Below are positions 6,710 to 30,361 of a stretch of DNA of 32,025 nucleotides, piece after piece. The DNA lies in assembly GCA_019313765.1 (NCBI GenBank), contig JAFDAP010000001.1, positions 1-32,025 on the forward strand, given 5' to 3'. The notes beneath the pieces were generated by a model. It was not told where the DNA came from. It searched no databases and saw only the letters and a list, made by a program, of their open reading frames with translations. This DNA is from Deltaproteobacteria bacterium (GTDB lineage: Bacteria; Desulfobacterota; DSM-4660; Desulfatiglandales; Desulfatiglandaceae). Position numbers and translations under genes: made by a program. Within the stretch, counting starts at the first letter, position 1. Each line of letters opens with the position of its first letter.

Positions 6710-6993
6710 GGGGATTCCGGATTCGTTCTCTATTGCGAAGGTTAGGTGGTCGCAGTTGTTTGTGGGCGCAACATTCCTCTGGAACTGTTCAAACATATCA
6801 TTACGTAAACACAAATCAACAAGCTGCCTTCGCCAGTAAAAAGATTAGAAATTGGGCTTAGTGATGCTCAAAAAGAATAGAGATCATCCTGAGGGAAATG
6901 TTATACTAGAGACTTGTGAATAATTGAGGGTAATTGTAAAACTGGCTTTTAAAGATAGCAAAGCGTTTTCGCGGATCAGGAGAGGAGCAGTCC

Positions 6994-7977: not shown

Positions 7978-7997
7978 GGAAGCAAAGGAAACATGAA

Positions 7998-10649: not shown

Positions 10650-10783
10650 CGCCAATTTCCTCTTGGGAGTAGAATATAGAATACTTTGTGAGGAAGTCAA
10701 ATCATTTGAACACCCCAAAAAAGTATTCTCCTTAAAAGATTATTTATCCCTTAAAAATGTATTTATAAATATTTTTTTCTATT

Positions 10784-12258: not shown

Positions 12259-12319
12259 ATGAGAACATCCCTTCCAGGCCAGCACCCGATTCTTGTAAAT
12301 TCTATATCAACAATTGGGG

Positions 12320-13021
12320 CTAAATAAATTTCTCTCTGTTCTGAAGACGGAGAAGAGCAAAGAGAGTGGCCACCACGGAACCCATGATCAGGTAGAGACG
12401 GTTGTAGAATGTAGTCTGGGCCCAGAGCACCGACCTAAGGGCATCCACACTGCGGAAGGGGTTGTGAAAGAGAAACCAGCTGCTGTTCTGAATCTCTTCG
12501 GCCAGCACCCAAAAGAACAAGAGAAAGATAACCATAATTACCGCAGTGACATTGCCGCTGGTGGACTGGGCAGAAATATAAAAGGCCAGGCTCCCCAAAA
12601 AGATCACCGGTATCATCACATGGAAAACCATCCGCCATATGGGGAAATCGGCCAGGGTGAGACGGCAGAGGAGAACCAGGGCGAACATCATAACGGCGAT
12701 GATGATGTAGAGCGTTACCAACCGTGTCAACCAAACTTTGTAGCGGTAATCGGGGATGCCAAAAAGTGTTTCCACCATGCGCGTGTCCTGGTCCCTCTGT
12801 ATGCCGTATACCGAAGGATAGAAGACAAGCAGAATTCCCGGTGCCAGGAGATAATTATAAAGATTTTCCGAATTGGGCGTCCCCCCTCGTCCCAGCAGGC
12901 CTATGACCAGGATCAGGAAAAAGAGGCCCATGGCCAGTCCCAGAAAAACAACGAACCGTCCGCCGAAAACATGGAGGGCATTATATCTCAAAAAGGCGAC
13001 TGCGGTTTTAATCCTGTTCAT
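12320..13021 (-). CDS. Small polytopic membrane protein, probable ABC-2-type permease partner of the fused NBD
   Basis: The protein is 233 aa from 'MNRIKTAVAFLRY' and has six hydrophobic helices by eye. ATG 13021-13019 overlaps the TGA (13020-13018) of the upstream gene as ATGA. The track start at 13063 lies inside the upstream CDS. The permease family assignment is inferred from size, topology and context only. Confidence 0.6.
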   Translation of the reverse strand: MNRIKTAVAFLRYNALHVFGGRFVVFLGLAMGLFFLILVIGLLGRGGTPNSENLYNYLLAPGILLVFYPSVYGIQRDQDTRMVETLFGIPDYRYKVWLTRLVTLYIIIAVMMFALVLLCRLTLADFPIWRMVFHVMIPVIFLGSLAFYISAQSTSGNVTAVIMVIFLLFFWVLAEEIQNSSWFLFHNPFRSVDALRSVLWAQTTFYNRLYLIMGSVVATLFALLRLQNREKFI

Positions 13022-16000
13022 GGCGTGTCTCCTTCGTTCCTTTCGGTCGAACCCATCAACCACATGTAGGAATCCTCCAGGGTGGGAACCACTTGTTTAG
13101 CCTCTTCAAAAGGCTGCTTCCCGGCTAGGATCCGCACTCTGACCTTGCCTGCATCCCTCATATGATGGACCACTTTGGTAGCACGTCGGATCCTATCTAG
13201 ATCACCTTCCGGAATAAGGGCCTGCCAGACATTGCCTCGAGTCCGTTCGACCAATTCCTTGGGAGTGCCGACGAACTTGACTCTTCCCTCCAGCAGAACA
13301 GCCACTTTGTTGCATGAGCTGGAGATGTCCTCAATGATGTGGGTGGAGAAGATCACGATGCGGTCCTTGGCCAATTCAGACAGAAGATTCCTGAATTTGA
13401 TTCTCTCCCTTGGATCCAGTCCCGCCGTCGGTTCATCCACCACCAGGATCCTGGGAAGCTTGAGCAGGGTCTGGGCGATGCCGACCCGCTGCTTCATCCC
13501 TCCTGAAAATGTCCCAATTTTGTTGTCCCGGTTATCCGTAAGATGAACGGATTCCAGCGCGGTGCTGACGATGCGTTCCCTTTCTACCTTGTTCCATATC
13601 CCTTTGAGCATGGCCTGGTAGTCCAGAAACTGGACGACGGTCATGTTTTCATAGGTGCCGAATTCTTGGGGCAGATAGCCGATCAAGGCCTGAAGTTCCT
13701 CCCTGTGCTCCTCCAGGTCCAAGTGATTGAAGGACACTTTACCCCGGCTGGGGCCCAGGATGCCGCAGATGATGCGCATCAGGGTTGTCTTTCCCGCGCC
13801 GTTGGGTCCCACCAGTCCGAACATCCCGCTTCCAATGGAGAGGGAGATTTGGTCCAGTGCTCGGAATGGCTTTTTCTTTCGACTGAGCAAGGGAACACTT
13901 TGAACGAATCTGTAGAAGGCGCGCCGCAGCCGACCAAACCGCCCGGTCAGGCGGTCAATATTAACGCCCTTTTCCTCCAAACGTTTGGCTACGGCCTTGA
14001 GAAGAATGGCCAGATACCAGATCATGCCAAAAAAAACAGTGGAAAATGTATCCTGCCACAAACCATTCAACCAGAGGAGCACAGGAATGGGCAGTCCCCA
14101 GCGAACCACCTTCTCTCCTAGGTCAAATATCCGTTCCCGCAGGCGCCGGGCCGGTCCCGGTGCGGGTTTGAAGGTGCGGAACAAATTCAGGGTAGCCAAA
14201 TAGAAGACGATGACCAGAATCAGCCGCCACAATCCTCCTTTGATGTAAAAGAACAGGAAAAAGACCAGAAAGGCATAGAGGGGAAGGAGATAAACCCAGC
14301 GGGCCAGACGCTCCTTAAAAGGAAGGCTTCCTGATGATACCTCCCGGTCCCTGCCCCCTTTCTTCCACTCTTTTGCGAATTTAATAAAATCGTCATAGAC
14401 CTTGGATACATTGCGGATGGTGATGGTGATGGGTGCATCATCGGCAAAAAGCTGGGTGCGGCTGCGTCGGAGGCTGGTTCTGACAAACCATGTGCCGGCG
14501 GGAATAGCGGCCAAAAGCCCCAGTATGTAGGCGGACTGCCAGAGCACTGAATGGATGGTGTTGATGATCAGGACCAGACCCAAGAAAAACAGCCCCAGCA
14601 TCAGGAGCTTGGTTTTGAGCGGCAGCCTGTTCAGCCAGCGCAGGGTGTTGTCCAGGCCAAAGGCAGCTGTGGGGATGATGACCAGGGTGAAGAGGGTGGC
14701 GAAGGCCAGCCCCCCGATGACTGTGATGGCAAAGGGGGCGCCGATCTGGGAGATGTATTCTGCCCGGCCCATGGCAATGGGCAGCATGGCCAGGATGGTG
14801 GTTACCGCTGTGATCAGGATGGGCCTGACCCGGGTCTGGCCAGCCGTGATCAGGGCACGTGACAAGCGAAAATTTTTCCGTTGGAGGATGCGCGAGTAGT
14901 CGATCAGTATGATGCCGTTGTTGACGACGACACCCAGAAGGATCAGGAATCCGATAAGCGCATTGGCATTGTAGATGGAGTTCCCTGTAAGGATGAGAGC
15001 CAGGAAGGCACCCACCGCGGCCAGGGGCAGGGTGAACATCATCACCAGAGGAGTGATCAGGGATTCGAAGGTGGAGGCAAGGACCATGAAGATGAGCAGG
15101 ATCCCTATTCCAATAAGAAAGTAAAATTCCGAAATGTCGCTTTCATCATGGGCCACTTCAATGGCCACGCCGGGAGGCGGGTAGATACCGGCGACAATGT
15201 CCTCGATCTCCGTCCGGGCCTGATCCAGAAGGGTGCTGGATTCCTCGATATCTGACTCGAACTGGTAGGTCACTGTTACCTGTTTTTCCTGGTTTATCCG
15301 ACTGATCCGGCTGTAGCCTGCCGAATACAGGAGTTTGGAAATCTGGGTGATGGGGACCAACCCCTCCGAGGCGGATGGGATCTGGAGCCTGCGAAGGTCA
15401 TCCGAAGTTTTCTCTTCTTCCTCTTCAGTCTTCAAGATGATGTCCACCTCTTCCGGGCCATCCATGTACTTGACGGTGGCGGATATCTCCTTCTGGAAAG
15501 TGTTAAGCTCATCCATAACTGACTGAAGCCCTACATCAAAATGTTTGAGTGCTGCCTTGTCAAGAAGGAGATCGATGCTGGGCTGCTGGTTGGAAACGCT
15601 GATATTGACCGATCTTACGGTATCGAGATTTTCAATATTGTATTGGATATCCTCGGCTATAGCCCTCAAGATCTCCAGGTCTTGACCACTGAGGATAACC
15701 TTTTCCTGGCTGGCTCCCATACCGAGAAGCCGCTGAAAATCCTGGCCTCTGCCGCTGCCGCCCTGAAAGCCAACATTCTGGGTGGGTTCTTCGTAGGAAA
15801 AGTCGATTCGAGGGAAGGCATCATCCAGCATTCCCTCGATGGAGTCCTTGATCTCCTCGAGAGGACGTCCGGCGATCTTCTCATATCCCTTCTCCAGCTG
15901 AAACGTCAGAACGATGTTGTCCTCCTGGATGGATGATGTCCGTTCCTCTATCTCCTGCATGTCCTTCAACCGCTTATCCATCTCCCGGGCCTGTTCATCC

Positions 16001-17712
16001 GCTGTCTCCAGGGTTGTTCCGGAAGGGAGAGTGGCATACAAATTAAATGTATCAAGTGGAACCTCCCGGGGAACGTTGACACTAAGCCCCAGACAAATAA
16101 CGAGGCTGATAAAAAAGGCCATCACACACACAGCCAGCGTTCCTGCCGGAAAACGCAGGCCTGTTTTGAGAAGCACGGTGTATATCTGCATGGGCCGCTG
16201 CTTTTGGCTGAACGCAGTGCGAGGTGTGTTCTGTTTTTTCCCGGAAAGGATCCGGTAAGCGATGGTGGGAATCAGAAGAAATGCCACTGCCAGCGAAACA
16301 AGAAGAGTAGCGATGATGGAAACACCGATCTGCCAGCCCAGTGTTTTGATCAGGGGCTCAGTAGAAAACAGAAAGGGGACAAAAATGCAGATAGTGGTCA
16401 GTGTGGCAGCGATGATGGCTCGCAGCACTTCATTGGTCCCATCCACTACGGCATTGCCTGCAGTCTGATTCCTGTTGATGTGGCGGTTGATGTTTTCCAG
16501 CACCACAACGCTGCTGTCCAGCAGCATCCCCACCGCAATGGCGATTCCCACAAGAGTAAGTGTGTTGATGGTGATCCCAAGCGCGTAAAAAAGATTCATG
16601 GATATCAAGACAGAGATTGGGATGGTGAGAGCAATGATAAAAACAAATTTAAGCCTTCGTATAAAAACCCAGAGGACGGCGATGGCCAGAAGGCTTCCCA
16701 AAAGGCCCAATATAAAGATGGACTGCATGTTGTCTTCGATGACCCGGGCTTCATCCACCTGAATGACGAGCTCGATTCCGTCGGCACTGATCCGGCGGTT
16801 GATGTCCTCGATGGCCTTACGGGTTTTGGCGGCCAGGGAAAGGAGGTTTGTGTCCCAACTGCGCACCAGTGACACCGTGATGGTCTCCATGCCGTTGATC
16901 CGCGAGATGGATTCCTCCTCCGCCCCACCTTCCCTGATCTCAGCGATCTGGCCCAGTGTTATAGGACCTGTGTTTTTGACCACAACATCAACCAGGTCGG
17001 GAATATTCGTGTACTCGCTGACCAGGTTGATGAAATATTTCTGGCGTCCCTCCCGGGCGACCCCAAGGTACTGCCTTTGTCCAGCCTGCTGGTTGATTTT
17101 GGAGGCAACCTGGTTGATCGTCAATCCGAATTCGGCCAACAGGCTGCTGTCCAGAACGATCTCGATGGACCGCTTGCGGCCGCCGTACACATTAACGTTG
17201 GCCACCCCATCAATGGTTTCCAACTGGGGAGTAACCTTCTCATCAATAACACTGCGGATCTGATCCAGGCCGCCTTCACCTCTGGCTTGAAAGGAAAGGA
17301 ACTGATTGGAGAGCTGCTCGGGATTGGTCCTGGCCACCTTCACCTGGAAGGAGTCGGTCAGCTGGGCCGCAGCGGCCGCAACCCTGTCCTGGAGTTTCAG
17401 AAAATCATATTTTTGGCGGCTGGACTGGTTATAGTAAACAAAGATGGTGGCCTGCCTGCGGCTTACATATGATTCGATCTTTTCGATGTTTTCCAGCCCG
17501 GCGATAGCTCCCTCCAGCGGGATCACGGCATAGTGCTCCACATAGGCAGGATCGGCGTTCTGCGGGCCGGAGATATTGATGATCAATTGAGGAAGCTCAG
17601 TATTCGGGAAGAGCTCGATGGGAAGCTGCCGGAAGGAGACAGCCCCCAGCAGACAGAGCCCGGCAATGAGCATGAAGACTGTAACCGGCCGTCGTATGAT
17701 CTGTCGAATCAT
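13018..17712 (-). CDS. RND (AcrB/HAE-type) efflux permease fused in frame to extra TM helices and a complete ABC-transporter ATPase domain (1,564 aa)
   Basis: Residues 1-~1020 form an RND core, with 'MIRQIIRRPVTVFMLIAGLCLLGAVSF', TM4 'GMLLDSSVVVLENI', and 'LGVVVNNGIILIDY..RVRPILITAVTTILAMLPIA'. The C-terminal NBD has Walker A GPNGAGKT (13786-13809), 'YLPQE', signature FSGGMKQRVG (13480-13509), Walker B ILVVDEPT (13426-13449) and 'STHI'. The frame is uninterrupted, and the start lies 3 nt after the upstream RND stop. Confidence 0.9.
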   Translation of the reverse strand: MIRQIIRRPVTVFMLIAGLCLLGAVSFRQLPIELFPNTELPQLIINISGPQNADPAYVEHYAVIPLEGAIAGLENIEKIESYVSRRQATIFVYYNQSSRQKYDFLKLQDRVAAAAAQLTDSFQVKVARTNPEQLSNQFLSFQARGEGGLDQIRSVIDEKVTPQLETIDGVANVNVYGGRKRSIEIVLDSSLLAEFGLTINQVASKINQQAGQRQYLGVAREGRQKYFINLVSEYTNIPDLVDVVVKNTGPITLGQIAEIREGGAEEESISRINGMETITVSLVRSWDTNLLSLAAKTRKAIEDINRRISADGIELVIQVDEARVIEDNMQSIFILGLLGSLLAIAVLWVFIRRLKFVFIIALTIPISVLISMNLFYALGITINTLTLVGIAIAVGMLLDSSVVVLENINRHINRNQTAGNAVVDGTNEVLRAIIAATLTTICIFVPFLFSTEPLIKTLGWQIGVSIIATLLVSLAVAFLLIPTIAYRILSGKKQNTPRTAFSQKQRPMQIYTVLLKTGLRFPAGTLAVCVMAFFISLVICLGLSVNVPREVPLDTFNLYATLPSGTTLETADEQAREMDKRLKDMQEIEERTSSIQEDNIVLTFQLEKGYEKIAGRPLEEIKDSIEGMLDDAFPRIDFSYEEPTQNVGFQGGSGRGQDFQRLLGMGASQEKVILSGQDLEILRAIAEDIQYNIENLDTVRSVNISVSNQQPSIDLLLDKAALKHFDVGLQSVMDELNTFQKEISATVKYMDGPEEVDIILKTEEEEEKTSDDLRRLQIPSASEGLVPITQISKLLYSAGYSRISRINQEKQVTVTYQFESDIEESSTLLDQARTEIEDIVAGIYPPPGVAIEVAHDESDISEFYFLIGIGILLIFMVLASTFESLITPLVMMFTLPLAAVGAFLALILTGNSIYNANALIGFLILLGVVVNNGIILIDYSRILQRKNFRLSRALITAGQTRVRPILITAVTTILAMLPIAMGRAEYISQIGAPFAITVIGGLAFATLFTLVIIPTAAFGLDNTLRWLNRLPLKTKLLMLGLFFLGLVLIINTIHSVLWQSAYILGLLAAIPAGTWFVRTSLRRSRTQLFADDAPITITIRNVSKVYDDFIKFAKEWKKGGRDREVSSGSLPFKERLARWVYLLPLYAFLVFFLFFYIKGGLWRLILVIVFYLATLNLFRTFKPAPGPARRLRERIFDLGEKVVRWGLPIPVLLWLNGLWQDTFSTVFFGMIWYLAILLKAVAKRLEEKGVNIDRLTGRFGRLRRAFYRFVQSVPLLSRKKKPFRALDQISLSIGSGMFGLVGPNGAGKTTLMRIICGILGPSRGKVSFNHLDLEEHREELQALIGYLPQEFGTYENMTVVQFLDYQAMLKGIWNKVERERIVSTALESVHLTDNRDNKIGTFSGGMKQRVGIAQTLLKLPRILVVDEPTAGLDPRERIKFRNLLSELAKDRIVIFSTHIIEDISSSCNKVAVLLEGRVKFVGTPKELVERTRGNVWQALIPEGDLDRIRRATKVVHHMRDAGKVRVRILAGKQPFEEAKQVVPTLEDSYMWLMGSTERNEGDTP
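13021..13866 (-). other. Domain: ABC ATPase (NBD) with C-terminal extension, paralogous to the ATPase at 30362-31273
   Basis: All NBD motifs are intact (see the parent CDS). The tail '..GNVWQALIPEGDLDRI..VRVRILA..PTLEDSYMWLMG' parallels 'GKVWTISTGYEDLDSW..YELRIVA..PNLEDAYIHYMQ' in the stand-alone ATPase. Confidence 0.85.
13867..14394 (-). other. Domain: ~175-aa hydrophobic insertion (about four TM helices) between an NBD-like first strand and the Walker A region
   Basis: 'ITITIRNVSKVY' (14395-14430) resembles the first strand of an NBD (compare 'MQISISQLSKRY' of the stand-alone ATPase). It is followed by 'WVYLLPLYAFLVFFLFFYI', 'LWRLILVIVFYLATLNLF', 'WGLPIPVLLWLNGLW' and 'FSTVFFGMIWYLAILLKAV', and then by 'KPFRALDQISLSIGSGMFGLVGPNGAGKTT'. 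Confidence 0.55.
14653..17712 (-). other. Domain: RND transporter core (aa 1-~1020 of the fusion)
   Basis: The boundaries come from my residue count of the ORF translation. The last canonical RND helix ends in 'FTLVIIPTAAFGL'. Confidence 0.75.
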
Positions 17713-17715
17713 AGA

Positions 17716-20700
17716 CTAAGCCCTCTCTTCTCTCTGCTTCATACGGCCGCCCAAAATACGATAGACCGCGGGGATAACGATCAGAGTCAGGATGGTGGAT
17801 GTCACCAATCCTCCTATAACAGCCACAGCCAGCGGAGCCCTGAGGGAAGCTCCTTCACCTATTCCCAGGGTCAACGGGAAGAGGGCCAGAATGGTTGTGG
17901 CAGAAGTCATAAAAATGGGCCTGATGCGCAGCTGTCCTGCCGCAATGATGGCCGCTTCCATGGCCCTGCCGCTCCGGCGAAGCTGGTTGATCAGATCCAC
18001 CAGGATGATTGAATCGTTTACCGCGATCCCAGCCAGCATGATCATTCCAATAAAGGACATGATATTCAATGGCAGGTTGAGCACCATCAGGAGGATCACC
18101 GCCCCTACCATGGCTAGAGGAATGGTCAGAAGAATGACGAATGGATGGCGCAGAGACTCGAACTGCGAGGCCATAACCATATAGACCAGGATGACAGCCA
18201 GGAGGAGGGCGAACCACAGGTGGCGGAAGGATTCCCTCCTCAGTTTTTCCTCACCGGTGATGGCAAAAGAATAATCTTGGGGCAGTGTGATCTCCGCGAG
18301 TGCGCTTTCCACATGGGCTATTATTTTGTCGAAGGCCTCTTCTCCGCTGAGCAAGGCCGTCACTTCAGCTGTCCGGATCTGGTTATTTCTCAGAATCTCG
18401 CGGGGAGAGGTTGTTTTTCGAAGTGAGGCCACCTCATCCAACCTCAATTTGCGTCCCCCTGTGGCATCCAGAAGAAGACCCTCCAGTTCCTTGAGCGTCG
18501 GTTCGGGCGTGCGCAGCATGATGTTGATGTATTCGCCCTCGTCTTCATATTCCCCCAGTTCCTTACCAGACAATAGATCTTTCAGCTGGGAGCCAATGCT
18601 CTGGGGAGTGAGGCCGAAGCTTGTGGCTGCGGTCCTGTCGAAAACCACTTCCACTTCGGGCCTACCTTCCTGAAAGCTGGTTTCGACAGCAGTCAAACCC
18701 GGCTGCTTCTGCAGAATGGCCTCCACCTCATCGGACAGAGATTTCAGGGTGTCCAGTTCCTTGCCCCGTATTTCCACGATCAAAGGTGCCTCCACCGTTC
18801 CCAGGGTGATCTGAAGGGCGGTCTGAGCCCGCATGATCTGGGCGGTGAGACCGGGAATGTCAGTCAACTGATTTTTCAACCACACCTGTAGAGAGTCCAG
18901 GTCCAGCCCATCCGGTTTGACTGTCACAAGGAGCATGGCGCTGTTCTCTCCGGCCAACACCTCTGATTCTGTAAGGGCGGTTCCCACAGGTCCAATGCGG
19001 GAGTAGATGGACTGGATGGATTCCCCATGATTTTCCTGGAGCAGTGTTTCCAGGCTGCGAACTGTGGATTCCGTCCGCTCCAGGTTCGATCCCTCCGGCA
19101 GAAGAAGCGAAATCTCCAGTTCATTGCGGTCCGTCTGGGGCATAAACTCACTGCCCATGTTGACCGCCAAAAAGCCTGCCGACAGGATCAAAAGAAAGGC
19201 CAGGGCAACCACAAGCCAGCGTTTTTTCAGTATGCCGCTAAGGAAACGGGCATAGAAGGGAAACTGCAGGGAGGGTTTGGCTACTTTGACCTTAGGAGCT
19301 TTCAGGATCCTGGAACAGAGCATTGGGATGACGGATAGGGCGACAAAAAGGGAAGACAGGAGGGCGAAGGCCACTGTCCAGGCTTGCTCCTTGAACAGCT
19401 CCCCTGCGATGCCCTGGAGATAGACGATGGGGAGAAACACGATGATAGTTGTCAGGGTGGAACTGGTGATGGCTCCCCCCACTTCACCAGCGCCGCGCAC
19501 AGACGCCTCCTTAATCCCCAATCCCTCCTCCAGATGGCGGAATATGTTTTCCACAACGACGATGGCATTGTCCACCAGCATACCGGCTCCCAGAGCCAGA
19601 CCTCCCAGAGTCATGATGTTAAGGGTCAGCTTATTAAAGTACATCAAGTTAAATGTGGCGATGATGGAGACGGGAATGGCAATGCTGACAACAGCGGTAA
19701 CACCTATCCTGCGAAGGAAAATGAACAGGATCAGGACAGCCAGAAAAATCCCGATCATTCCGGTCTGCTCTACTTCCCTTACCGCGGATTTAATGAAACC
19801 CGCCTGGTCTTGGATGATGTGCAGTTCGTATCCGGGAAGGGCCCTCTGAAGGCTTTCCAGCTGGCTGCGGATGTATTCCGAAGCCTGCGTGGTGTTGAAC
19901 CGGGCTTCCTTGAAGATCTCGAGAGCAAGACACCGACGACCGTTATAGTGGACGATGTTCTCAGGATCGCTGAGAACGTAGCTCACATCGGAGATATCTT
20001 TCAGGGTGATAGGAGTGCGGTCGGATGATTCTCCCGTTTCATCGGTTTTATAGGCGATGATCAGGTTTTTGAGGTCTTCCAGCGACTCCAACTCACCCAC
20101 ACCCCGGATGGTATAGCGCAGGCCCATCTCGACGATGGACCCGCCGGAGATGCTCCTGTTGCTTTCCTGCACTGCGGAGGCCACCTGGTCCAATGTCAGC
20201 CCGTAGGCTTCCAGAGTAAAGGAATCCGTCCGGATCTCGATCTCTCTTTTTCTCTCTCCGACAATTTCCACGGCGGCCACGCCGGGAAGCCTGACAAGGT
20301 CGTTGCGAATGTTGTTTTCCGCAGTCTGACGCAGTCTGTCCAGATCCTCCAGGTCCTCGTGCCAGAAGACGGCGGTGATAACGGGCTGGGAATTGGGGTC
20401 CAGCTGGCTGACAGTGATATCATCCAGTTCCTGGCCCTGGCTAAAATCGGACACGGACTTTTGCAGTTCCAGATAGGCCTCGTCCATATCCGTATTCCAG
20501 TCATATTCGACCGTGATCAGGGCCCGGCCCACACGGGAAATGGAGGAGACCCCGGTCACCTTGCGGCCGCGGGCGGCCATAGCTTCCAGCTGAGAGACAA
20601 ACTGTTCCTCCATCTCTTCTGGAGGACGATTTTCAGCTGCCATGGAGACATAAAGCCGCGGATTATTCAGACGCGGTAGAAGATCGATCCCCAGCCTTTG

Positions 20701-20790
20701 AAAGGCGATATAGCCAAGGAGGCAGATGGCCAGGATGACCATGATTATGGTCGTGGGATACCTGACGGAAAATTGTGCCAGCTTTTTCAT
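17716..20790 (-). CDS. RND efflux transporter permease subunit (AcrB/HAE family)
   Basis: The 1,024-aa ORF shows 'MKKLAQFSVRYPTTIIMVILAICLLGYIAF', TM4 'GAGMLVDNAIVVVENIF', and 'GIAVNDSIILVDLINQL..RIRPIFMTSATTILALFPL'. It starts 1 nt after the MFP stop. Confidence 0.93.
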   Translation of the reverse strand: MKKLAQFSVRYPTTIIMVILAICLLGYIAFQRLGIDLLPRLNNPRLYVSMAAENRPPEEMEEQFVSQLEAMAARGRKVTGVSSISRVGRALITVEYDWNTDMDEAYLELQKSVSDFSQGQELDDITVSQLDPNSQPVITAVFWHEDLEDLDRLRQTAENNIRNDLVRLPGVAAVEIVGERKREIEIRTDSFTLEAYGLTLDQVASAVQESNRSISGGSIVEMGLRYTIRGVGELESLEDLKNLIIAYKTDETGESSDRTPITLKDISDVSYVLSDPENIVHYNGRRCLALEIFKEARFNTTQASEYIRSQLESLQRALPGYELHIIQDQAGFIKSAVREVEQTGMIGIFLAVLILFIFLRRIGVTAVVSIAIPVSIIATFNLMYFNKLTLNIMTLGGLALGAGMLVDNAIVVVENIFRHLEEGLGIKEASVRGAGEVGGAITSSTLTTIIVFLPIVYLQGIAGELFKEQAWTVAFALLSSLFVALSVIPMLCSRILKAPKVKVAKPSLQFPFYARFLSGILKKRWLVVALAFLLILSAGFLAVNMGSEFMPQTDRNELEISLLLPEGSNLERTESTVRSLETLLQENHGESIQSIYSRIGPVGTALTESEVLAGENSAMLLVTVKPDGLDLDSLQVWLKNQLTDIPGLTAQIMRAQTALQITLGTVEAPLIVEIRGKELDTLKSLSDEVEAILQKQPGLTAVETSFQEGRPEVEVVFDRTAATSFGLTPQSIGSQLKDLLSGKELGEYEDEGEYINIMLRTPEPTLKELEGLLLDATGGRKLRLDEVASLRKTTSPREILRNNQIRTAEVTALLSGEEAFDKIIAHVESALAEITLPQDYSFAITGEEKLRRESFRHLWFALLLAVILVYMVMASQFESLRHPFVILLTIPLAMVGAVILLMVLNLPLNIMSFIGMIMLAGIAVNDSIILVDLINQLRRSGRAMEAAIIAAGQLRIRPIFMTSATTILALFPLTLGIGEGASLRAPLAVAVIGGLVTSTILTLIVIPAVYRILGGRMKQREERA

Positions 20791-20791
20791 T

Positions 20792-21871
20792 TTACTCGAT
20801 GACCTTGACGCGAGATCGATTTCTCAGAGTCTCGAAGCCTTCAATGATCAGTCTGTCCCCGAGATTGAGCCCACTGGCCACTTCAACGCTGTCGCTGGTC
20901 TCGATGCCCAGCTCCAACCTCCGCTCCAAAGCGATCCCTCGCTGGATGATGTAAACGGTTTTCCGGCCCCGTCTGTCCAGGATGATATCTTTGGGGATGA
21001 TGATCACATCCGCCTTCTCCTGGACGATGATGTCGGCGCGTACGAACATTCCGGGTTTGAGCATAAGGTCCTTGTTGCCCGCTTCGATCTTGATCTTGAA
21101 CATCCGGCTGGTGGGATCAAGCGCCGGTGAGATCTGTGTCACCATTCCTTCGAGTTTCTGTTTGTCCTGGCTGTAGTTGCTGACGGCGACATTCTGGTTT
21201 CTCTTGATGCGGCCCATCTCTTTTCCGGGCAGGGTCAGTTCGGCATAGAGACGGGAATAATCCATCAGAGTAGCCACTTCGGTGTTGACCTCCACCCACT
21301 GACTGGAAGTGAAGTGTGGGAGGTCGACGATAAATCCCTTGAAGGGGGCGCGGATCTCCAGCTTGGCCAGGGAAATTTTGGCGTTGTCATAATTGTAACG
21401 GGAATCGATCAGAGCCCTTTCCGCATCCTTGACCTCACTTAAAGTGATGCCTCCCTTTTCATAGACGCTTTGCTGCTTAGTGAATTCCCTCTCCGCCGAC
21501 TCGAGGCTAAGCTTTTTGGAATCGATGGCGATCTGATTGACATATTCAGGATTCTCCAGGGAAAAGAGCAGGGTGTTGGCAGCCACGGAATCTCCCATGG
21601 CAAAAGATTTTCCCGTCCTGGGATTTCGCCTCAATGTGTACTTCCCTGCCTGTTCCGTTTTTAGCATGGTTTCCTTAACAGCATAGACCGTTCCCGTGGC
21701 CGTCACGAATTCCTGGATAGAGGATTTTTTCACCTCTTCCGCCCGGACAGGAATAGTAGAGTCCGTCTCTGTTGTCATACGCTCCTGCCGGCAGCCGGTC
21801 AAAACCAATATGAATATAAATAACAATACATACAGTGGTGTAACATTGAGTCCCGTTGTGGTTTTTCTCAT
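20792..21871 (-). CDS. Efflux RND periplasmic adaptor (membrane fusion protein, HlyD/AcrA family), lipoprotein
   Basis: The 359-aa ORF has a signal peptide with the lipobox 'LVLTGC'. A coiled-coil hairpin segment is followed by 'LEIRAPFKGFIV' and beta-barrel segments. The SD AGGAGGG is present, and the start lies 3 nt after the OMP stop. Confidence 0.9.
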   Translation of the reverse strand: MRKTTTGLNVTPLYVLLFIFILVLTGCRQERMTTETDSTIPVRAEEVKKSSIQEFVTATGTVYAVKETMLKTEQAGKYTLRRNPRTGKSFAMGDSVAANTLLFSLENPEYVNQIAIDSKKLSLESAEREFTKQQSVYEKGGITLSEVKDAERALIDSRYNYDNAKISLAKLEIRAPFKGFIVDLPHFTSSQWVEVNTEVATLMDYSRLYAELTLPGKEMGRIKRNQNVAVSNYSQDKQKLEGMVTQISPALDPTSRMFKIKIEAGNKDLMLKPGMFVRADIIVQEKADVIIIPKDIILDRRGRKTVYIIQRGIALERRLELGIETSDSVEVASGLNLGDRLIIEGFETLRNRSRVKVIE

Positions 21872-21874
21872 CCT

Positions 21875-23413
21875 TTATCCCTCCTGTTCCGATATATCTT
21901 CGAGTTCGTCCAAGATGGACCGGTTGGCCTCAAAATCCCAGAGCGTCCTGATCTTTAAGTCAAGCAGGGCCAGTTTGTTGTTGATCAGAGCCTGAACCAG
22001 GCTGAGTTTTTGCGTCGACAGCTGGAGCTGGTAGAACTGCAGATCCTTGGACGAGAGATCACCATTGCGGTATCGCTCCAGGTTGATGGCGTAGGTGAGC
22101 TCCGCGTTTTTTATGCTTTTCTCCGCAATTTCTATCTGACGTTTCTGGTTCAGCAAATTCCGATAGGCTTCTCGGATCTCTAATCTTATGCTTTTTATCT
22201 CTTCATCAGCCGATAGCTTGACCGTTTCGATCTGAGCCTTGGTGGCGGCCAGGTGATGTTTCTTCTGTCCCCAGTCAAAAAGCGGGATGTTCAGGGTCAG
22301 GGCGATCAGGCGGTCACTATTGGGCGAGTCGTAGATACCCGGGAACTGTCGGTTGGTTCCCGTCAATCCGAAGGAGAGATTGAGGGAGGCCTTGAATTCG
22401 TTCTCGGCTCCAGCCCTGATGAGATCATGCATGGCATTCTGGATCTCTATGTCCTTCTGCCGCAGCTCCATACGGTTTTCCATCCCATAAGCAATGGCAA
22501 TATTCAGATCCACTTCCACCATTGATCTCTGAATATCGGCGGACACATCGATCAGGGCTTCCAACTCAAGTCCCAGCAGTGTTTTGAATGTATCCAGACT
22601 GTTTTCATGCTGCATGAGTTTGTTTTCCATCGAAGCCAGACTGTTGTCCTTGGTGATGTCTGCCTGATAAAGTTCTTCAGGTGCGGTTATACCGGCATCC
22701 ACCTTGCTCTGGATGATCTTGAAGCTTTCCGTGGCGTTTTTGTATTCCTCCTGGGAGATCTGGATACTCATCCTGGAATAATAGAGGTTGAGGAACTGCT
22801 GGGTGACCAGACGTTCGATCTGAAGCTTCTGAATGGCGTAGGCTAGTTGTGCATTCTCAAGGGACAGTTCAAGCTCCTTCATCTGCATCTTTTTCCTGTT
22901 GTAAGTAAAAAGAGGTTGGTTGAGGCTAACGGTCAGTGAGTTGGAGAATTCGGATTTCTTATCTCCGCCTGCAAAAGAACTGGACGCTTCCTGCCAGTTG
23001 AACTTGTCGGTGACGATCAAAGTGGCATCCGTCCAAATGACGGGCTGACGGATGGTGAAGGAGGTTTCCGTTCTTGTCTGGGTTTGGGTGTTGTAGCTGG
23101 AGGTAAGCTCACTAAACACTCTCCCACTGGAAGTGAGGTAGGGCGTAACGGTCAAACTGAACTGGGACTTCAGCCCGGCCTTCTCGGCCATCAGGTTGCG
23201 CTCGTTAAACTCCAGCTGAAGGGAAGCCTGACGCATAGCCGGGCTGTTCTTGAAGGCGATGTTGAGGGCCCTGTCCAGAGTCAGCTCATCCCCTGCCGAT
23301 AGAGTATCTGCCGTGAAGATCATTATGAAGCTGAATACGATCAGCGGCCCAATAATTATCATGCGACCAGCCGTAAGAGGCCTGTGTGAACTTTTCTTAT
23401 CTGTCATTTTCAT
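21875..23413 (-). CDS. TolC-like outer membrane efflux protein (OEP family)
   Basis: The N-terminus has signal-like 'MIIIGPLIVFSFIMIFTADTLSAG', then 'LTLDRALNIAFKNSPAMRQASLQLEF' and the two-repeat OEP organisation. I prefer ATG 23413 ('MKMTDKK', with GGAG 6 nt upstream) over the track's GTG at 23440. Confidence 0.85.
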   Translation of the reverse strand: MKMTDKKSSHRPLTAGRMIIIGPLIVFSFIMIFTADTLSAGDELTLDRALNIAFKNSPAMRQASLQLEFNERNLMAEKAGLKSQFSLTVTPYLTSSGRVFSELTSSYNTQTQTRTETSFTIRQPVIWTDATLIVTDKFNWQEASSSFAGGDKKSEFSNSLTVSLNQPLFTYNRKKMQMKELELSLENAQLAYAIQKLQIERLVTQQFLNLYYSRMSIQISQEEYKNATESFKIIQSKVDAGITAPEELYQADITKDNSLASMENKLMQHENSLDTFKTLLGLELEALIDVSADIQRSMVEVDLNIAIAYGMENRMELRQKDIEIQNAMHDLIRAGAENEFKASLNLSFGLTGTNRQFPGIYDSPNSDRLIALTLNIPLFDWGQKKHHLAATKAQIETVKLSADEEIKSIRLEIREAYRNLLNQKRQIEIAEKSIKNAELTYAINLERYRNGDLSSKDLQFYQLQLSTQKLSLVQALINNKLALLDLKIRTLWDFEANRSILDELEDISEQEG

Positions 23414-23468
23414 GAACAACTCCATTTTCCAGCAGAACACTCAGTCCTGCATGGATCTATTTTTAAGC

Positions 23469-26400: not shown

Positions 26401-26858
26401 ATCGTTAGAAAATATAGCAGGTAGGCAGTGAAGCTGAAGGGGGTTTCAGAAAGAAAAAGGTGAATCAGAGCGGTCATCACGCCGACAAGGATATTCATCA
26501 GAATAAACAGGCCGAGTACACCGAGAAACTTGCCGAGAATATAGCTGGTATTGGAGAAGGACCGGGAAAAGATGACCTGAGTGGAATGTGTCCTCCGGTC
26601 CCGTTTGAAGAATTCCGTGGCCATGAAGACCACGATAATACCCTGGTAAACATTGAAGAGTTTGAAGCTGAACAACGGGATGGATCCTGACAGGGACCGG
26701 AAGTAATAGGGGAAGGAAAAGGAGGGGGCGGCGATCCCGGCCGTCAAAAGACCCATAATAATAAGGCCCAACAGTGCGAAAATGCGGAAGCCCCAGGACC
26801 TCAGGAGAATTTTTGTCTCATATGCGGCGATTTTTAGACAAATCCTCACAGCCTTCAT
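23469..26858 (-). CDS. Fusion protein: 7-TM ABC-2-type permease domain + M1-aminopeptidase-like (no HExxH) domain + C-terminal golvesin-like module (paralog 1, 1,129 aa)
   Basis: Seven hydrophobic helices span aa ~20-280. M1 N-domain-like strings follow: 'SCSLDVEFAGSTLSAASNIRLKN..LLLTLNPGLQISRV..IDLQIVYAG', 'ESGWYP', 'YTLKVKLPEGCTAVSQG'. The C-terminus 'YIVDNEDPGF..GSYDIYFY..QGWEYLGTFRLAAGTNTIEQ..FLTADAVKWV' matches the golvesin C-terminal-like pattern. The SD GAGGATAAAGAC precedes the ATG. Confidence 0.75.
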   Translation of the reverse strand: MKAVRICLKIAAYETKILLRSWGFRIFALLGLIIMGLLTAGIAAPSFSFPYYFRSLSGSIPLFSFKLFNVYQGIIVVFMATEFFKRDRRTHSTQVIFSRSFSNTSYILGKFLGVLGLFILMNILVGVMTALIHLFLSETPFSFTAYLLYFLTINLPTLVFLVGLSFILGMTIRSQAAVILLGLALSSISLAVLGNKAYFIPDIFGFHTPLMYSDFIGLGNNVQLFYLRFPYFLLGVGFVFGTVLLAKRLRQSPWTTALSGTLSVLLVLSAFGLMLSHVQSNRVLDSLRQDLITASDKYKDIAPLSMESCSLDVEFAGSTLSAASNIRLKNKREKPADSLLLTLNPGLQISRVTNNGQDVDFSREGHIVFIWLPKPLGFDENIDLQIVYAGAPIEAYCYPDIDGKTTRNPSKLGLYNVPKKYVFLSEKFVHLTPESGWYPREGIPLSHRFPGAVDSDFCQYTLKVKLPEGCTAVSQGIPEIEESDGGRTFTFRPKTLLPQISLTVGPFEERTLKVKDVEFKLFTLPGHDYFTRHLDAITESLPKAITQLKDEFEVILGLDYPYEQLAFVEVPIHFYSHKRLWSAADETVQPQMVLLPEMGTLCEGADFASLSRWYQRMGKGKGERGKDITTAQIQTIFFNGFVRTNFLGTQPAKGSFSDGALAGVTESDVNADYNLMPNYFAFTSTLASDRWPILHSAVESWIQDRISASSFRFDRRGGLTDQEKTNRLLDGRSMSDLIAEKDLDDRELYNVFLAKGKYLMTVIESRIQEDNFDLNLLAFLKEKKFSTITEEEFLQFLFFYKEFDLEPVMAAWYEETQVPAFTVGAADMYSVQDGEKKRTHIHLPLTNISETEGIVQISVMTANSKSKGYGSNLWETQSTVIIPPKTTKEIGFLLDTRPVFLTLDTTISRNIPAAMNMNLWQQKVKERDTFFEGERSAPFEQDRPDTGEYIVDNEDPGFVVAGGGGGNWIRSTIHRLFDLTSTETEYLEYNSANPPGRWSPVILQDFYGKVIRSGYMIKIGEGGNKVSWTADLPESGSYDIYFYNETASFGKGGDKEGWKRPTQEEKHFIIHHEDGPEEIAFDIKESSQGWEYLGTFRLAAGTNTIEQTDRGKGTFLTADAVKWVKSLTN

Positions 26859-30351: not shown

Positions 30352-30361
30352 ATCTTTAACC

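What the first reader, a model, noticed from the sequence alone, without database searches (positions are those of the whole stretch)
13018..17712. One uninterrupted ORF fuses a full RND (AcrB-type) pump to a complete ABC ATPase
Seen in the sequence: the 1,564-codon frame contains a full-length RND permease (aa 1-~1020). Instead of stopping, it continues through two extra hydrophobic helices (aa ~1033-1077; 14482-14616) and further helices into an NBD. That NBD has intact Walker A (13786-13809), Q-loop, signature (13480-13509), Walker B (13426-13449) and H-loop.

The topology bookkeeping is self-consistent. The 12 RND helices end in the cytoplasm, and the added helices come in even numbers (2 + ~4), so the NBD stays cytoplasmic. 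This argues for a real protein rather than an accidental read-through.

Established knowledge: RND pumps are proton-motive-force antiporters that work as trimers, while ABC NBDs hydrolyse ATP as dimers. The two energy-coupling machines are normally separate systems (AcrAB-TolC versus MacAB-TolC).

Inference: this may be an ATP-gated or ATP-assisted RND, or an RND that physically docks an ABC-2 exporter so that substrate is handed from the cytoplasm or inner leaflet to the periplasmic RND/TolC conduit. I do not know of a characterised example.
Basis: partly seen in the sequence, partly recalled or inferred. Interest (0 to 1): 0.92.

Follow-up and report, generated by a model that had tools for sequence, protein, structure and literature searches.

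The report
Natural RND pump fused to ABC ATPase
One very large membrane protein really does join a proton-driven (RND) efflux pump to a complete ATP-driven (ABC) motor; the fusion is conserved in hundreds of bacterial species and appears never to have been described or studied.

Summary
ORF 13018-17712(-) encodes 1,564 aa: ACR_tran over aa 1-1015 (E 6e-154) and ABC_tran over aa 1286-1430 (E 9e-29).

It is not a read-through artefact. 386 species genomes encode a relative, and all 66 loci with enough upstream DNA carry an uninterrupted frame of about 1,550-1,590 aa. These include the cultured isolates Prolixibacter bellariivorans and Puteibacter caeruleilacunae.

- The first beta-strand of the ABC domain lies about 205 aa before Walker A. 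A conserved insertion of about 170 aa with four membrane helices separates it from the rest of the domain.
- The next gene overlaps the fusion's stop codon (ATGA). It encodes a 233-aa protein whose predicted fold matches only type V ABC membrane domains.
- The fusion sits in a conserved eight-gene operon: stand-alone ATPase (49% identical paralogue), ABC-2 permease(s) with a giant periplasmic domain, OMF, MFP, RND1, fusion, small TMD.
- Both RNDs lack the AcrB Asp-Asp/Lys triad.

Best reading: a composite envelope-spanning exporter in which ABC-2 module(s) are tethered to a heteromeric RND duct. The function is untested. I found no literature on it.

The parts
13018..17712 (-). The fused gene: 1,564-aa RND-6TM-ABC ATPase polypeptide (stop codon TGA at 13018-13020)
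   Evidence: ORF list and translation. Pfam gives ACR_tran plus ABC_tran. 66 uninterrupted orthologues.
14668..17712 (-). RND permease domain, aa 1-1015 (12 TM helices and two periplasmic loops). TM4 is LLDSS with Asp399, TM10 is VVNNG, TM11 has Arg963.
   Evidence: ACR_tran, E 6e-154, full profile length. Alignment to CmeB. Relay-residue counts.
14482..14607 (-). Extra helices TM13 (aa 1036-1053) and TM14 (aa 1060-1077)
   Evidence: Hydropathy. AlphaFold2 helices 17-37 and 41-68 of the fragment. 38% identity among distant orthologues with no gaps.
14395..14430 (-). Displaced first beta-strand of the NBD with the A-loop Tyr (aa 1095-1106, ITITIRNVSKVY)
   Evidence: AlphaFold2 strand at fragment residues 82-91, pLDDT about 91. 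I1097, K1104 and Y1106 are at least 95% conserved. A PSSM built from beta1 of the stand-alone paralogue picks this site in 65 of 67 orthologues.
13990..14298 (-). Four-helix membrane insertion inside the NBD (TM15-TM18, aa 1139-1241). It is flanked by amphipathic helices.
   Evidence: AlphaFold2 helices. Hydropathy is conserved although sequence identity is only 25%. This linker is found only in the fusion family.
13243..13860 (-). NBD core, aa 1285-1490: Walker A 13786-13809, Q-loop 13663-13674, signature 13480-13509, Walker B plus Glu 13426-13449, D-loop 13414-13425, H-loop 13336-13347
   Evidence: Pfam ABC_tran. Motif coordinates. Motifs invariant in 82 sequences. Nearest relatives are ABCA NBDs, NosF, GldA and DrrA.
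13021..13242 (-). C-terminal beta-rich domain after the NBD (aa 1491-1564)
   Evidence: AlphaFold2 strands at fragment residues 480-514. It aligns with the C-terminal domain of the stand-alone paralogue and with TM_1403 and NosF.
12320..13021 (-). Small 233-aa six-helix membrane protein, the candidate type V (ABC-2) TMD partner. Its ATG overlaps the fusion's TGA (ATGA), and AAGGAG lies 8 nt upstream.
   Evidence: Sequence. A 233-aa gene call is on record (P0121). Conserved directly downstream of the fusion in nearly all loci that extend far enough (74 ORFs of 225-310 aa recovered). AlphaFold2 pLDDT 85, pTM 0.85. Every top Foldseek hit is a type V ABC TMD.
17716..20790 (-). Unfused RND paralogue RND1 (1,024 aa), 3 nt upstream of the fusion. 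Probable partner in a heteromeric RND.
   Evidence: ACR_tran, E 2.6e-223. 27% identical to the RND part of the fusion. Syntenic in all loci.
20792..21871 (-). Periplasmic adaptor (MFP), 359 aa
   Evidence: HlyD_D23 and HlyD_3. TIGR01730 RND_mfp, E 3.9e-55, above its cut-off.
21875..23440 (-). Outer-membrane factor (TolC-like), 521 aa
   Evidence: OEP, E 1.8e-42, two repeats.
23469..26858 (-). ABC-2-type permease with a periplasmic domain of about 850 aa that ends in Golvesin_C (copy b, 1,129 aa)
   Evidence: Pfam Golvesin_C; weak Peptidase_M1. ABC2_membrane_2 at the N-terminus in 12 of 22 family members. No HExxH.
26926..30351 (-). Tandem paralogue of the same permease (copy a, 1,141 aa counted from the internal ATG at 30351)
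   Evidence: Translation. ABC2_membrane_2 and Golvesin_C. The longer TTG-initiated ORF overlaps the upstream ATPase gene.
30362..31273 (-). Stand-alone ABC ATPase (303 aa), paralogue of the fused NBD and first gene of the operon
   Evidence: ABC_tran, E 1e-32. 49% identity over 270 aa to the fused NBD, including the C-terminal domain. Conserved upstream of the permease in about 35 loci.

Best explanation
The ORF encodes a genuine, ancient single polypeptide. It consists of a full RND permease, then two extra TM helices, then a catalytically complete ABC-2-class ATPase. The ATPase's first beta-strand is separated from the rest of the domain by an insertion of about 170 aa that contains four membrane helices.

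It is the hub of a conserved eight-gene operon, in this order: stand-alone paralogous ATPase; ABC-2 permease(s) with a giant periplasmic domain that ends in a carbohydrate-binding-like module; OMF; MFP; unfused RND1; the fusion; a small type V ABC membrane subunit.

Most likely mechanism (inferred, not shown):
1. RND1 and the fusion form a heteromeric RND trimer that docks the MFP and OMF into an exit duct across the envelope.
2. The six extra helices hold the ATPase against the membrane beside this trimer.
3. There the ATPase works with the translationally coupled small TMD, and possibly with the paralogous ATPase/permease pair, as a type V ABC exporter or extractor.
4. ATP hydrolysis moves an amphipathic or glycan-bearing substrate out of the cytoplasm or inner leaflet.
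5. The RND then takes the substrate from the outer leaflet or periplasm and expels it through the OMF.

The dimer-versus-trimer mismatch could be resolved in two ways. A 2 fusion : 1 RND1 trimer would supply two NBDs. Alternatively, the fused NBD could pair with the stand-alone paralogue.

Confidence that the fusion is real and that both halves are functional is about 0.95. The confidence value given below refers to the relay mechanism.
For: The fusion is real and conserved:
- 386 relatives in species-representative genomes.
- Open frames of about 1,550-1,600 codons in the loci with enough upstream DNA, and 66 full-length ORFs. These include the isolates Prolixibacter bellariivorans ATCC BAA-1284 (L053) and Puteibacter caeruleilacunae (L058).
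- A scan anchored independently on the permease gene found the fused ORF in all 19 loci that extend far enough.
- Searching the linker alone against 1.84 billion cluster representatives found it only at about residues 1022-1300 of proteins of about 1,550-1,585 aa, or in fragments.

The ATPase looks active:
- All motifs are invariant across 82 sequences.
- The NBD core is the best-conserved segment, at 70% identity.

The NBD is split:
- AlphaFold2 places a strand at aa 1097-1106.
- The paralogue's N-terminus, ISISQLSKRY-PGGK-LALKD, matches ITIRNVSKVY ... FRALD.
- The beta1 PSSM picks the distal site in 65 of 67 orthologues (14.7 bits against 6.3 for the second best).

There is a candidate TMD partner:
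- ATGA overlap and a Shine-Dalgarno sequence.
- Invariant synteny.
- The Foldseek hit list consists of PmtCD, ABCG2, NosY, ABCG25, ABCG5/8 and ABCA7 TMDs, with TM-scores of 0.55-0.65.

The NBD belongs to the ABC-2/type V class: ABCA1/3/4/7 at about 1e-50, NosF 3e-30, GldA 8e-50, DrrA 1e-48.

A second ABC-2 module and the MFP/OMF/RND1 genes are present in every locus.

Tandem RND paralogues served by a single MFP are the genomic signature of heterotrimeric pumps such as MdtB2C (my own knowledge). MdtB is among the best PDB sequence matches.
Against: - No functional, expression or structural data exist for any member.
- The small protein's link to ABC-2 TMDs rests on predicted fold only. Foldseek E-values are weak (best 8e-3). 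Pfam gives only sub-threshold ABC2_membrane_2 hits (7 of 31 members, best E 0.18). A PDB profile search gave nothing. hhalign found no relation to the permease's TMD.
It is inferred from the DSSP strand assignment.
- Stoichiometry, substrate hand-over and the substrate itself are all inference.
- Both RNDs lack AcrB's Asp408 and Lys940 equivalents, so ordinary proton coupling of the RND half is not assured.
Confidence: 0.45

Rival explanations
1. ATP-powered RND. The fused ATPase, dimerising between two fused protomers or with the stand-alone paralogue, drives or primes the conformational cycle of the RND porter domains through the six-helix linker. It replaces or supplements the proton-motive force. 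The small TMD and the linker helices act as the mechanical transmission.
For: Neither RND has the AcrB relay triad. The TM4 Asp408 equivalent is Asn/Ser and the TM10 Lys940 equivalent is Asn in 67 of 67 fusions and in 60 of 62 RND1. The fused paralogue also lacks the TM10 Asp that 43 of 62 RND1 carry (Asn in 67 of 67). The NBD is the most conserved part of the protein. The linker length is tightly fixed at 248-279 aa, as expected for a mechanical element.
Against: An invariant TM4 Asp and TM11 Arg remain in both paralogues. Other proton-driven RND families (CusA/CzcA, SecDF) also work without the AcrB triad (my own knowledge), so loss of PMF coupling is not shown. The presence of dedicated ABC-2-type membrane subunits is explained more simply by a normal ABC transporter. 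There is no precedent for an NBD driving an RND fold.
Confidence: 0.15
2. Tethering only. Two mechanistically independent transporters, an RND tripartite pump and an ABC-2 exporter, serve the same pathway. They are fused merely to guarantee co-localisation, co-assembly or fixed stoichiometry, with no direct substrate hand-over or energetic cross-talk.
For: Gene fusions often mark simple functional association. Every component needed for two ordinary transporters is present. Tight gene spacing and the ATGA overlap indicate co-expression.
Against: The fusion is maintained in every one of about 85 loci examined, and no split form was seen at the junction. A dedicated, family-specific six-helix linker includes an insertion inside the NBD. 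This elaborate and conserved geometry is more than a passive tether would need.
Confidence: 0.22
3. Regulatory ATPase. The NBD senses the cellular ATP/ADP state, or acts as a gate that opens or closes the RND. It transports nothing itself.
For: There is a C-terminal beta-rich domain like the regulatory domains of NosF, TM_1403 and ABCA NBDs.
Against: The full catalytic set, including the Walker-B Glu and the H-loop His, is invariant. A translationally coupled protein with a TMD-like fold argues for a working transporter. The stand-alone paralogue has the same C-terminal domain, so that domain is not special to the fusion.
Confidence: 0.1
4. Artefact: an assembly error, a frameshift or a recent stop-codon loss has joined two adjacent genes in this contig.
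For: Some related contigs do show broken frames. L001, L002 and L084 are from noisy long-read assemblies. L004 and L007 are each interrupted once.
Against: None of those breaks lies at the RND/linker junction. 66 independent assemblies, including two isolate genomes, keep a single frame. The linker is conserved in length, hydrophobicity and key residues. The linker is never found outside the fusion.
Confidence: 0.02

Closest known systems
MdtABC (MdtB2C) / MuxABC-type heterotrimeric RND tripartite pumps
   Same: Two tandem RND paralogues (27% identical here) sit in one operon with one MFP and an OMF. MdtB and MdtC are among the best NCBIfam and PDB matches.
   Different: One paralogue carries six more TM helices and a complete ABC ATPase. 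Both lack the Asp-Asp/Lys relay of the HAE-1 pumps. All NCBIfam RND models score far below their cut-offs (441 bits against a cut-off of 1,250).
MacAB-TolC (ABC-driven tripartite efflux pump, type VII ABC)
   Same: An ATPase, an MFP and an OMF are encoded together, and ATP energy is presumably used for export across the envelope.
   Different: MacB has a 4-TM FtsX-type fold with its own periplasmic domain and an N-terminal NBD, and no RND. Here Pfam reported no FtsX or MacB_PCD family for any protein scanned. The NBD is of ABC-2/ABCA class, and its candidate TMD has a type V fold.
Type V (ABC-2) exporters with separate subunits: NosDFY, GldAFG, PmtABCD, DrrAB, and ABCA/ABCG transporters
   Same: The NBD is closest to ABCA, NosF, GldA and DrrA. 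It has a C-terminal regulatory-like domain, as in NosF, TM_1403 and ABCA. The small subunit's predicted fold matches PmtCD, NosY and ABCG2 TMDs. The upstream permease hits ABC2_membrane_2.
   Different: No known member has its NBD covalently attached to an RND pump, and none has four membrane helices inserted between beta1 and beta2 of the NBD. The small subunit has no significant sequence match to any Pfam ABC-2 family.
CFTR NBD1 'regulatory insertion' between beta1 and beta2 (my own knowledge)
   Same: The same loop of the NBD tolerates a large insertion.
   Different: In CFTR the insertion is about 30 disordered, soluble residues. Here it is about 170 conserved residues forming four membrane helices plus amphipathic helices.

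Membership tests
RND permease superfamily (Pfam ACR_tran; HAE-1/AcrB-like) | Full-length 12-TM architecture with two large periplasmic loops, matched end to end by the family profile | tested here: met
   ACR_tran profile positions 1-1015 of 1021 match aa 1-1015, E 6.1e-154. PDB matches to CmeB, MdtB and AcrB span the whole domain.
RND permease superfamily (Pfam ACR_tran; HAE-1/AcrB-like) | AcrB-type proton relay: TM4 Asp407 and Asp408, TM10 Lys940, TM11 Arg971 | tested here: not met
   The Asp407 and Arg971 equivalents are invariant. The Asp408 equivalent is Ser here (Asn in 62 of 67 orthologues). The Lys940 equivalent is Asn in 67 of 67. RND1 likewise has Asn/Asn, but carries an adjacent TM10 Asp in 43 of 62. 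So this is an RND fold but not a canonical HAE-1 relay.
RND permease superfamily (Pfam ACR_tran; HAE-1/AcrB-like) | Encoded with a periplasmic adaptor (MFP) and an outer-membrane factor | tested here: met
   RND_mfp TIGR01730 at 187 bits, above its cut-off of 94.9, and OEP at E 1.8e-42, directly upstream. Syntenic in all loci.
RND permease superfamily (Pfam ACR_tran; HAE-1/AcrB-like) | Functional trimer | not testable with these tools
   No multimer prediction or experimental data are available.
ABC ATPase (Pfam ABC_tran), ABC-2 / type V class | Walker A, Q-loop, LSGGQ-type signature, Walker B with catalytic Glu, D-loop, H-loop | tested here: met
   GPNGAGKT, LPQE, FSGGMKQR, ILVVDEPT, AGLD and STHI are present and invariant across 82 sequences. 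ABC_tran matches profile positions 1-137 of 137.
ABC ATPase (Pfam ABC_tran), ABC-2 / type V class | Contiguous NBD fold, with beta1/A-loop immediately followed by beta2 and Walker A | tested here: not met
   The beta1/A-loop homologue lies about 205 aa before Walker A, against 34 aa in the stand-alone paralogue. The insertion of about 170 aa carries four membrane helices.
ABC ATPase (Pfam ABC_tran), ABC-2 / type V class | A partner membrane domain of ABC-2 (type V) fold | tested here: inconclusive
   For the small downstream protein, AlphaFold2 gives pLDDT 85 and pTM 0.85, and all top Foldseek hits are type V TMDs with TM-scores of 0.55-0.65. However, the best E-value is 8e-3. At sequence level there are only sub-threshold ABC2_membrane_2 hits. 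Physical association was not tested.
ABC ATPase (Pfam ABC_tran), ABC-2 / type V class | NBD dimerisation and ATP hydrolysis | not testable with these tools
   This needs biochemistry or multimer modelling.
MacAB-TolC-type (type VII) tripartite ABC pumps | FtsX-type 4-TM domain with a MacB periplasmic core domain | tested here: not met
   Pfam reported no FtsX or MacB_PCD family for any of the operon proteins scanned.
MdtBC-like heterotrimeric RND pumps | Two adjacent RND paralogue genes sharing one MFP | tested here: met
   RND1 and the fusion are 3 nt apart, 27% identical, and always adjacent.
MdtBC-like heterotrimeric RND pumps | Obligate heterotrimer with fixed stoichiometry | not testable with these tools
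   Inference from synteny only.

The most novel reading that the evidence does not exclude
This is a dual-energy envelope machine. In a heteromeric RND trimer, the ATPases of the fused protomers dimerise, either with each other in a 2:1 trimer or with the stand-alone paralogue. ATP hydrolysis is mechanically or sequentially coupled to the RND transport cycle. One complex would therefore combine primary (ATP) and secondary (PMF) active transport, possibly with ATP replacing a degenerate proton relay. It would be the first natural covalent coupling of ABC and RND transport. It would also be the first NBD anchored in the membrane by an insertion within its own fold.
Probability: 0.3. Interest if true: 0.95.

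Novelty: new variant of a known kind. Interest (0 to 1): 0.82.

Why it matters
RND and ABC pumps are the two textbook ways in which Gram-negative bacteria energise export across the whole envelope, and they are always treated as separate systems. A conserved natural fusion shows that evolution has physically joined them in at least several phyla: Acidobacteriota/Aminicenantes, Zixibacteria, Latescibacterota, KSB1, Calditrichota, Gemmatimonadota, Krumholzibacteriota and Bacteroidota.

It makes several questions directly testable:
- Can ATP hydrolysis and the proton-motive force cooperate in one pump?
- How is a dimeric motor reconciled with a trimeric pump?
- Are cytoplasm-to-periplasm and periplasm-to-outside transport steps physically channelled?

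It also reveals an NBD with a membrane-embedded insertion and an unannotated family of small ABC membrane subunits (1,377 'hypothetical proteins'). Two cultured carriers make experiments feasible.

Tried and rejected
- Artefact or read-through: rejected on orthologue evidence.
- Split (unfused) versions: short ATPase-only hits (P0054, P0041) were inspected. They proved to be cut by contig ends or to come from frameshifted long-read assemblies, not separate genes.
- Missing long hits: the 120 hits listed contained no protein longer than 950 aa. This reflects fragmentary metagenome gene calls or that search's listing, not the absence of full-length proteins. Full-length proteins were recovered from genome contigs and from the representative library.
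- Alternative first strand: the proximal segment VNIDRLTGRF (aa 1250-1259) was considered as the real beta1, because a cheap-gap local alignment chose it. It was rejected in favour of the distal site on the AlphaFold2 strand assignment, the conserved K-x-Y and the paralogue-derived PSSM (65 of 67).
- Small TMD as a paralogue of the big permease's TMD: hhalign probability 0.5%, so not supported.
- Sequence-level assignment of the small protein: Pfam, NCBIfam and a PDB profile search gave nothing significant.
- Active M1 peptidase in the permeases: the Pfam hits are below the gathering threshold, and no HExxH occurs in either copy or in 72 orthologues.
- Internal duplication of the TM13-14 and TM15-16 hairpins: hhalign probability 66%, E 5.6e-5. 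This is too weak to claim for hydrophobic helices.
- Promoter and terminator scans at the operon ends were uninformative.
- Seven literature searches and one review found no description of the fusion. Only open-access full text and bioRxiv were searched, so a mention in TCDB, InterPro or a subscription paper cannot be excluded.

Full report
**1. The observation**

The minus-strand ORF 13018-17712 is 1,564 codons with an ATG start. Pfam finds ACR_tran over aa 1-1015, covering essentially the whole 1,021-position profile (E 6.1e-154). It finds ABC_tran over aa 1286-1430, covering the whole 137-position profile (E 9e-29).

- Walker A GPNGAGKT at 13786-13809
- signature FSGGMKQRVG at 13480-13509
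- Walker B ILVVDEPT at 13426-13449
- the two extra helices at 14482-14616

The Q-loop (LPQE), D-loop (AGLD) and H-loop (STHI) are present as well.

**2. Is it a real protein?**

I searched a collection of one genome per species with the linker plus NBD (aa 1016-1564). This returned 386 relatives, of which the best 80 were fetched.

- In the loci with enough upstream DNA, the frame containing the NBD is open for 1,542-1,828 codons from stop to stop.
- 66 orthologous ORFs of at least 1,500 aa were recovered.
- By record title they come from Aminicenantes/Acidobacteriota (80-90% identity, so the window most probably derives from this group), Zixibacteria, Latescibacterota, KSB1, Calditrichaceae, Gemmatimonadetes, Krumholzibacteriota, Zhuqueibacterota and many Bacteroidota.
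- Two are cultured isolates: Prolixibacter bellariivorans ATCC BAA-1284 (L053) and Puteibacter caeruleilacunae JC036 (L058).
- The few broken frames (L001, L002, L084, L004, L007) come from noisy long-read assemblies or have single interruptions. None of the breaks lies at the RND/linker junction.
- A second scan, anchored independently on a different gene of the operon, found the fused ORF in all 19 loci that reach far enough.
- A search of 1.84 billion cluster representatives with the linker alone (aa 1016-1290) gave only 84 hits. Every full-length hit (1,550-1,585 aa) carries the linker at about residues 1022-1300. The linker therefore exists only in this fusion.
- Among 63 distant orthologues the NBD core is the best-conserved segment (70% identity). 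The RND part is at 48%, TM13-14 at 38% and TM15-18 at 25%, with hydrophobicity retained. The linker length is fixed at 248-279 aa.

Read-through or mis-assembly is excluded.

**3. Anatomy of the C-terminal third**

An AlphaFold2 model of aa 1016-1564, built on an 82-sequence alignment, has mean pLDDT 84.8 and pTM 0.73. In order, it shows:
- two long helices (TM13 and TM14);
- a ten-residue beta-strand at aa 1097-1106 (ITITIRNVSK, pLDDT about 91);
- an amphipathic helix;
- four further helices (TM15-18), then one more helix;
- only then the strand ALDQISLSI and Walker A.

The operon's stand-alone ATPase (30362-31273) is 49% identical to the fused NBD over 270 residues. It begins MQISISQLSKRY-PGGK-LALKDIDMDI...GPNGAGKTT. 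Its first strand therefore corresponds to ITIRNVSKVY in the fusion, and its four-residue hairpin loop corresponds to about 170 residues in the fusion.

I tested this with a position-specific matrix made from the first strand of 44 distinct orthologues of the stand-alone ATPase. I scanned it over everything upstream of Walker A in 67 fusion orthologues. The best segment is the distal site, 180-214 residues before Walker A, in 65 of 67. Its mean score is 14.7 bits against 6.3 for the runner-up.

A proximal look-alike (VNIDRLTGRF, aa 1250-1259) was preferred by a cheap-gap alignment. It is coil in the model, and it lacks the conserved Lys-x-Tyr.

The ATPase is thus complete, but its beta1-beta2 hairpin carries a conserved four-helix membrane insertion. 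I know of no precedent for this. CFTR's soluble 'regulatory insertion' occupies the same loop (my own knowledge).

The pairing partner of the displaced strand could not be inspected directly. It is inferred from the DSSP strand assignment.

Foldseek places the soluble part nearest TM_1403 (4yer), NosF and ABCA NBDs, including their C-terminal regulatory-type domain. By sequence, the nearest are ABCA4/1/3/7 (about 1e-50), NosF, GldA and DrrA. This is the ABC-2 / type V class.

**4. Surroundings**

All eight genes lie on the minus strand, with gaps of -4 to 67 nt:

| Gene | Coordinates |
|---|---|
| Stand-alone ATPase | 30362-31273 |
| ABC-2-type permease, copy a | 26926-30351 |
| ABC-2-type permease, copy b | 23469-26858 |
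| OMF | 21875-23440 |
| MFP | 20792-21871 |
| RND1 | 17716-20790 |
| Fusion | 13018-17712 |
| Small membrane protein | 12320-13021 |

These assignments rest.

*The two permeases.* They are tandem paralogues. Each has an ABC-2-type N-terminal membrane domain and a periplasmic domain of about 850 aa that ends in a Golvesin_C module. The N-terminal domain hits ABC2_membrane_2 in 12 of 22 family members, best E 3.5e-7. A lectin paper describes golvesin as carrying a CBM6/35/36-like carbohydrate-binding domain (PMC9166713). Their weak Peptidase_M1 similarity is below threshold, and no HExxH exists in either copy or in 72 orthologues.

*The small downstream gene.*
- Its ATG overlaps the fusion's stop codon (ccATGAac), with AAGGAG 8 nt upstream. 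This indicates translational coupling.
- A 233-aa gene call is on record (P0121).
- Its family comprises 1,377 proteins, all named 'hypothetical' and none with a Pfam domain.
- It has an invariant E-x-LF-x-IP-x-YRYK-x-WL-x-R motif.
- AlphaFold2 gives a confident helical model with six long helices and an N-terminal helix (pLDDT 85, pTM 0.85).
- Its Foldseek hits are uniformly type V ABC membrane domains: PmtCD, ABCG2, NosY, ABCG25, ABCG5/8 and ABCA7, with TM-scores of 0.55-0.65. The E-values are weak, however (best 8e-3).
- Sequence methods give only sub-threshold ABC2_membrane_2 hits.

*Synteny.* The order ATPase, permease (one to three copies), OMF, MFP, RND1, fusion, small protein is conserved in the fetched loci wherever they extend far enough.

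**5. The RND halves**

RND1 and the RND part of the fusion are 27% identical. I aligned them to CmeB and AcrB-type pumps and counted residues over 67 fusions and 62 RND1.

| Position (AcrB numbering) | Fusion | RND1 |
|---|---|---|
| TM4 Asp407 equivalent | Asp, invariant | Asp, invariant |
| TM4 Asp408 equivalent | Asn in 62 of 67 (Ser in the window) | Asn in 60 of 62 |
| TM10 Lys940 equivalent | Asn in 67 of 67 | Asn in 60 of 62 |
| Next TM10 residue | Asn in 67 of 67 | Asp in 43 of 62 (including the window) |
| TM11 Arg971 equivalent | Arg, invariant | Arg, invariant |

Neither protein is therefore a canonical HAE-1 pump. RND1 has an Asp/Asp/Arg constellation reminiscent of SecDF, and CusA/CzcA-type pumps also use a single TM4 Asp (my own knowledge). 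Loss of proton coupling therefore cannot be concluded. Even so, the fused paralogue is the one with fewer carboxylates.

**6. Mechanism**

*Shown:*
- a single conserved polypeptide;
- an intact ATPase under strong constraint;
- six extra helices of conserved length;
- a translationally coupled membrane protein with a type V-like predicted fold;
- a paralogous ATPase/permease module;
- an RND partner, an MFP and an OMF in one operon.

*Inferred:*
- RND1 and the fusion form a heterotrimer, as MdtB2C does.
- The linker holds the ATPase at the membrane next to the trimer.
- The ATPase, with the small subunit (and perhaps the stand-alone ATPase and the big permease), works as an ABC-2 exporter or extractor.
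- That exporter hands an amphipathic or glycan-bearing substrate to the RND/MFP/OMF duct.
- The dimer/trimer mismatch is soluble either by a 2 fusion: 1 RND1 trimer or by heterodimerisation of the two paralogous ATPases. Both ATPases have consensus catalytic motifs.

*Rivals:*
- an ATP-driven RND, favoured somewhat by the non-canonical relay;
- mere tethering of two independent pumps;
- a regulatory ATPase;
- an artefact, which is effectively excluded.

The substrate is unknown.

**7. Comparison and novelty**

The system works like a hybrid of three known kinds:
- an MdtABC-type heteromeric RND pump;
- a type V ABC exporter of the NosFY, GldAF or Pmt kind;
- conceptually, MacAB-TolC.

It fails defining features of each. 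It has no AcrB relay triad, no contiguous NBD, and no FtsX/MacB fold.

Public annotations call its members 'efflux RND transporter permease subunit', 'ABC-type multidrug transport system ATPase subunit' or 'ATP-binding cassette domain-containing protein'. No NCBIfam model reaches its cut-off.

Seven full-text searches and the 2021 Chemical Reviews survey of tripartite systems yielded no description of an RND-ABC fusion. TCDB, InterPro and subscription journals could not be searched.

I rate it a new variant of a known kind (tripartite efflux machinery). There is a substantial chance that it would count as categorically new if energetic coupling between the two halves is demonstrated.

**8. Verdict**

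- The mechanism is untested.
- Interest is high, at 0.82. A pump specialist would be surprised. The family is widespread, and cultured carriers exist to test it.

Noticed in passing
window 12320-13021 (-): The small protein downstream of the fusion belongs to a family of 1,377 database proteins. All are annotated 'hypothetical' and none has a Pfam domain. The family has an invariant E-x-LF-x-IP-x-YRYK-x-WL-x-R motif. It looks like an undescribed family of type V ABC membrane subunits.
   Followed up: partly
window 23469-26858 and 26926-30351 (-): Two tandem paralogues (70-79% identical in the compared parts) encode an ABC-2 permease fused to a periplasmic domain of about 850 aa that ends in Golvesin_C, a putative carbohydrate-binding module. 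Most other lineages have one copy, and some have arrays of ATPase-permease units (L101, L109, L133, L137). The weak Peptidase_M1 similarity lacks HExxH in all 72 orthologues checked.
   Followed up: partly
window 26926-30804 (-): The mechanical ORF list starts this gene at a TTG 151 codons too early, so that it overlaps the 3' end of the upstream ATPase gene. The real start is almost certainly the ATG at 30351, 10 nt after the ATPase stop codon.
   Followed up: yes
window 13936-13965 (-), aa 1250-1259 of the fusion: There is a second, weaker look-alike of the NBD's first strand (VNIDRLTGRF; R1254 and G1257 are at least 95% conserved) just before the NBD. There is also a weak profile similarity between the TM13-14 and TM15-16 hairpins (hhalign probability 66%). 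Together these hint that the linker may have arisen by internal duplication.
   Followed up: partly
window 10817-11446 and 11443-12258 (+): A 209-aa gene with no Pfam hit overlaps by 4 nt an AbiEii nucleotidyltransferase toxin gene (E 1.6e-27). This is probably an AbiEi/AbiEii type IV toxin-antitoxin pair. It lies immediately downstream of the operon and converges on it.
   Followed up: no
window 8994-10718 (-): A Ser/Thr protein kinase (Pkinase, E 1.7e-56) with an N-terminal zinc ribbon, one TM segment and a C-terminal extracytoplasmic region.
   Followed up: no
window 4144-4680 (+): A 178-aa ORF matches only the C-terminal half of the sulfatase domain (profile positions 149-301 of 301). It is probably a truncated or frameshifted sulfatase gene. 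The region is AT-rich (GC 0.40-0.44).
   Followed up: no
window 12314-13069 (+): A 251-aa ORF lies exactly antisense to the small membrane-protein gene. It has no family hits and a charged, low-complexity translation. It is most likely a shadow ORF rather than a gene.
   Followed up: partly
window 1210-3438 (-); 5327-8957 (+): Housekeeping neighbours: monomeric isocitrate dehydrogenase, an M24 Xaa-Pro aminopeptidase, a PLP-dependent enzyme and an ornithine cyclodeaminase-family gene. The PLP-enzyme gene has locally high GC (0.60 over 7001-8000).
   Followed up: no
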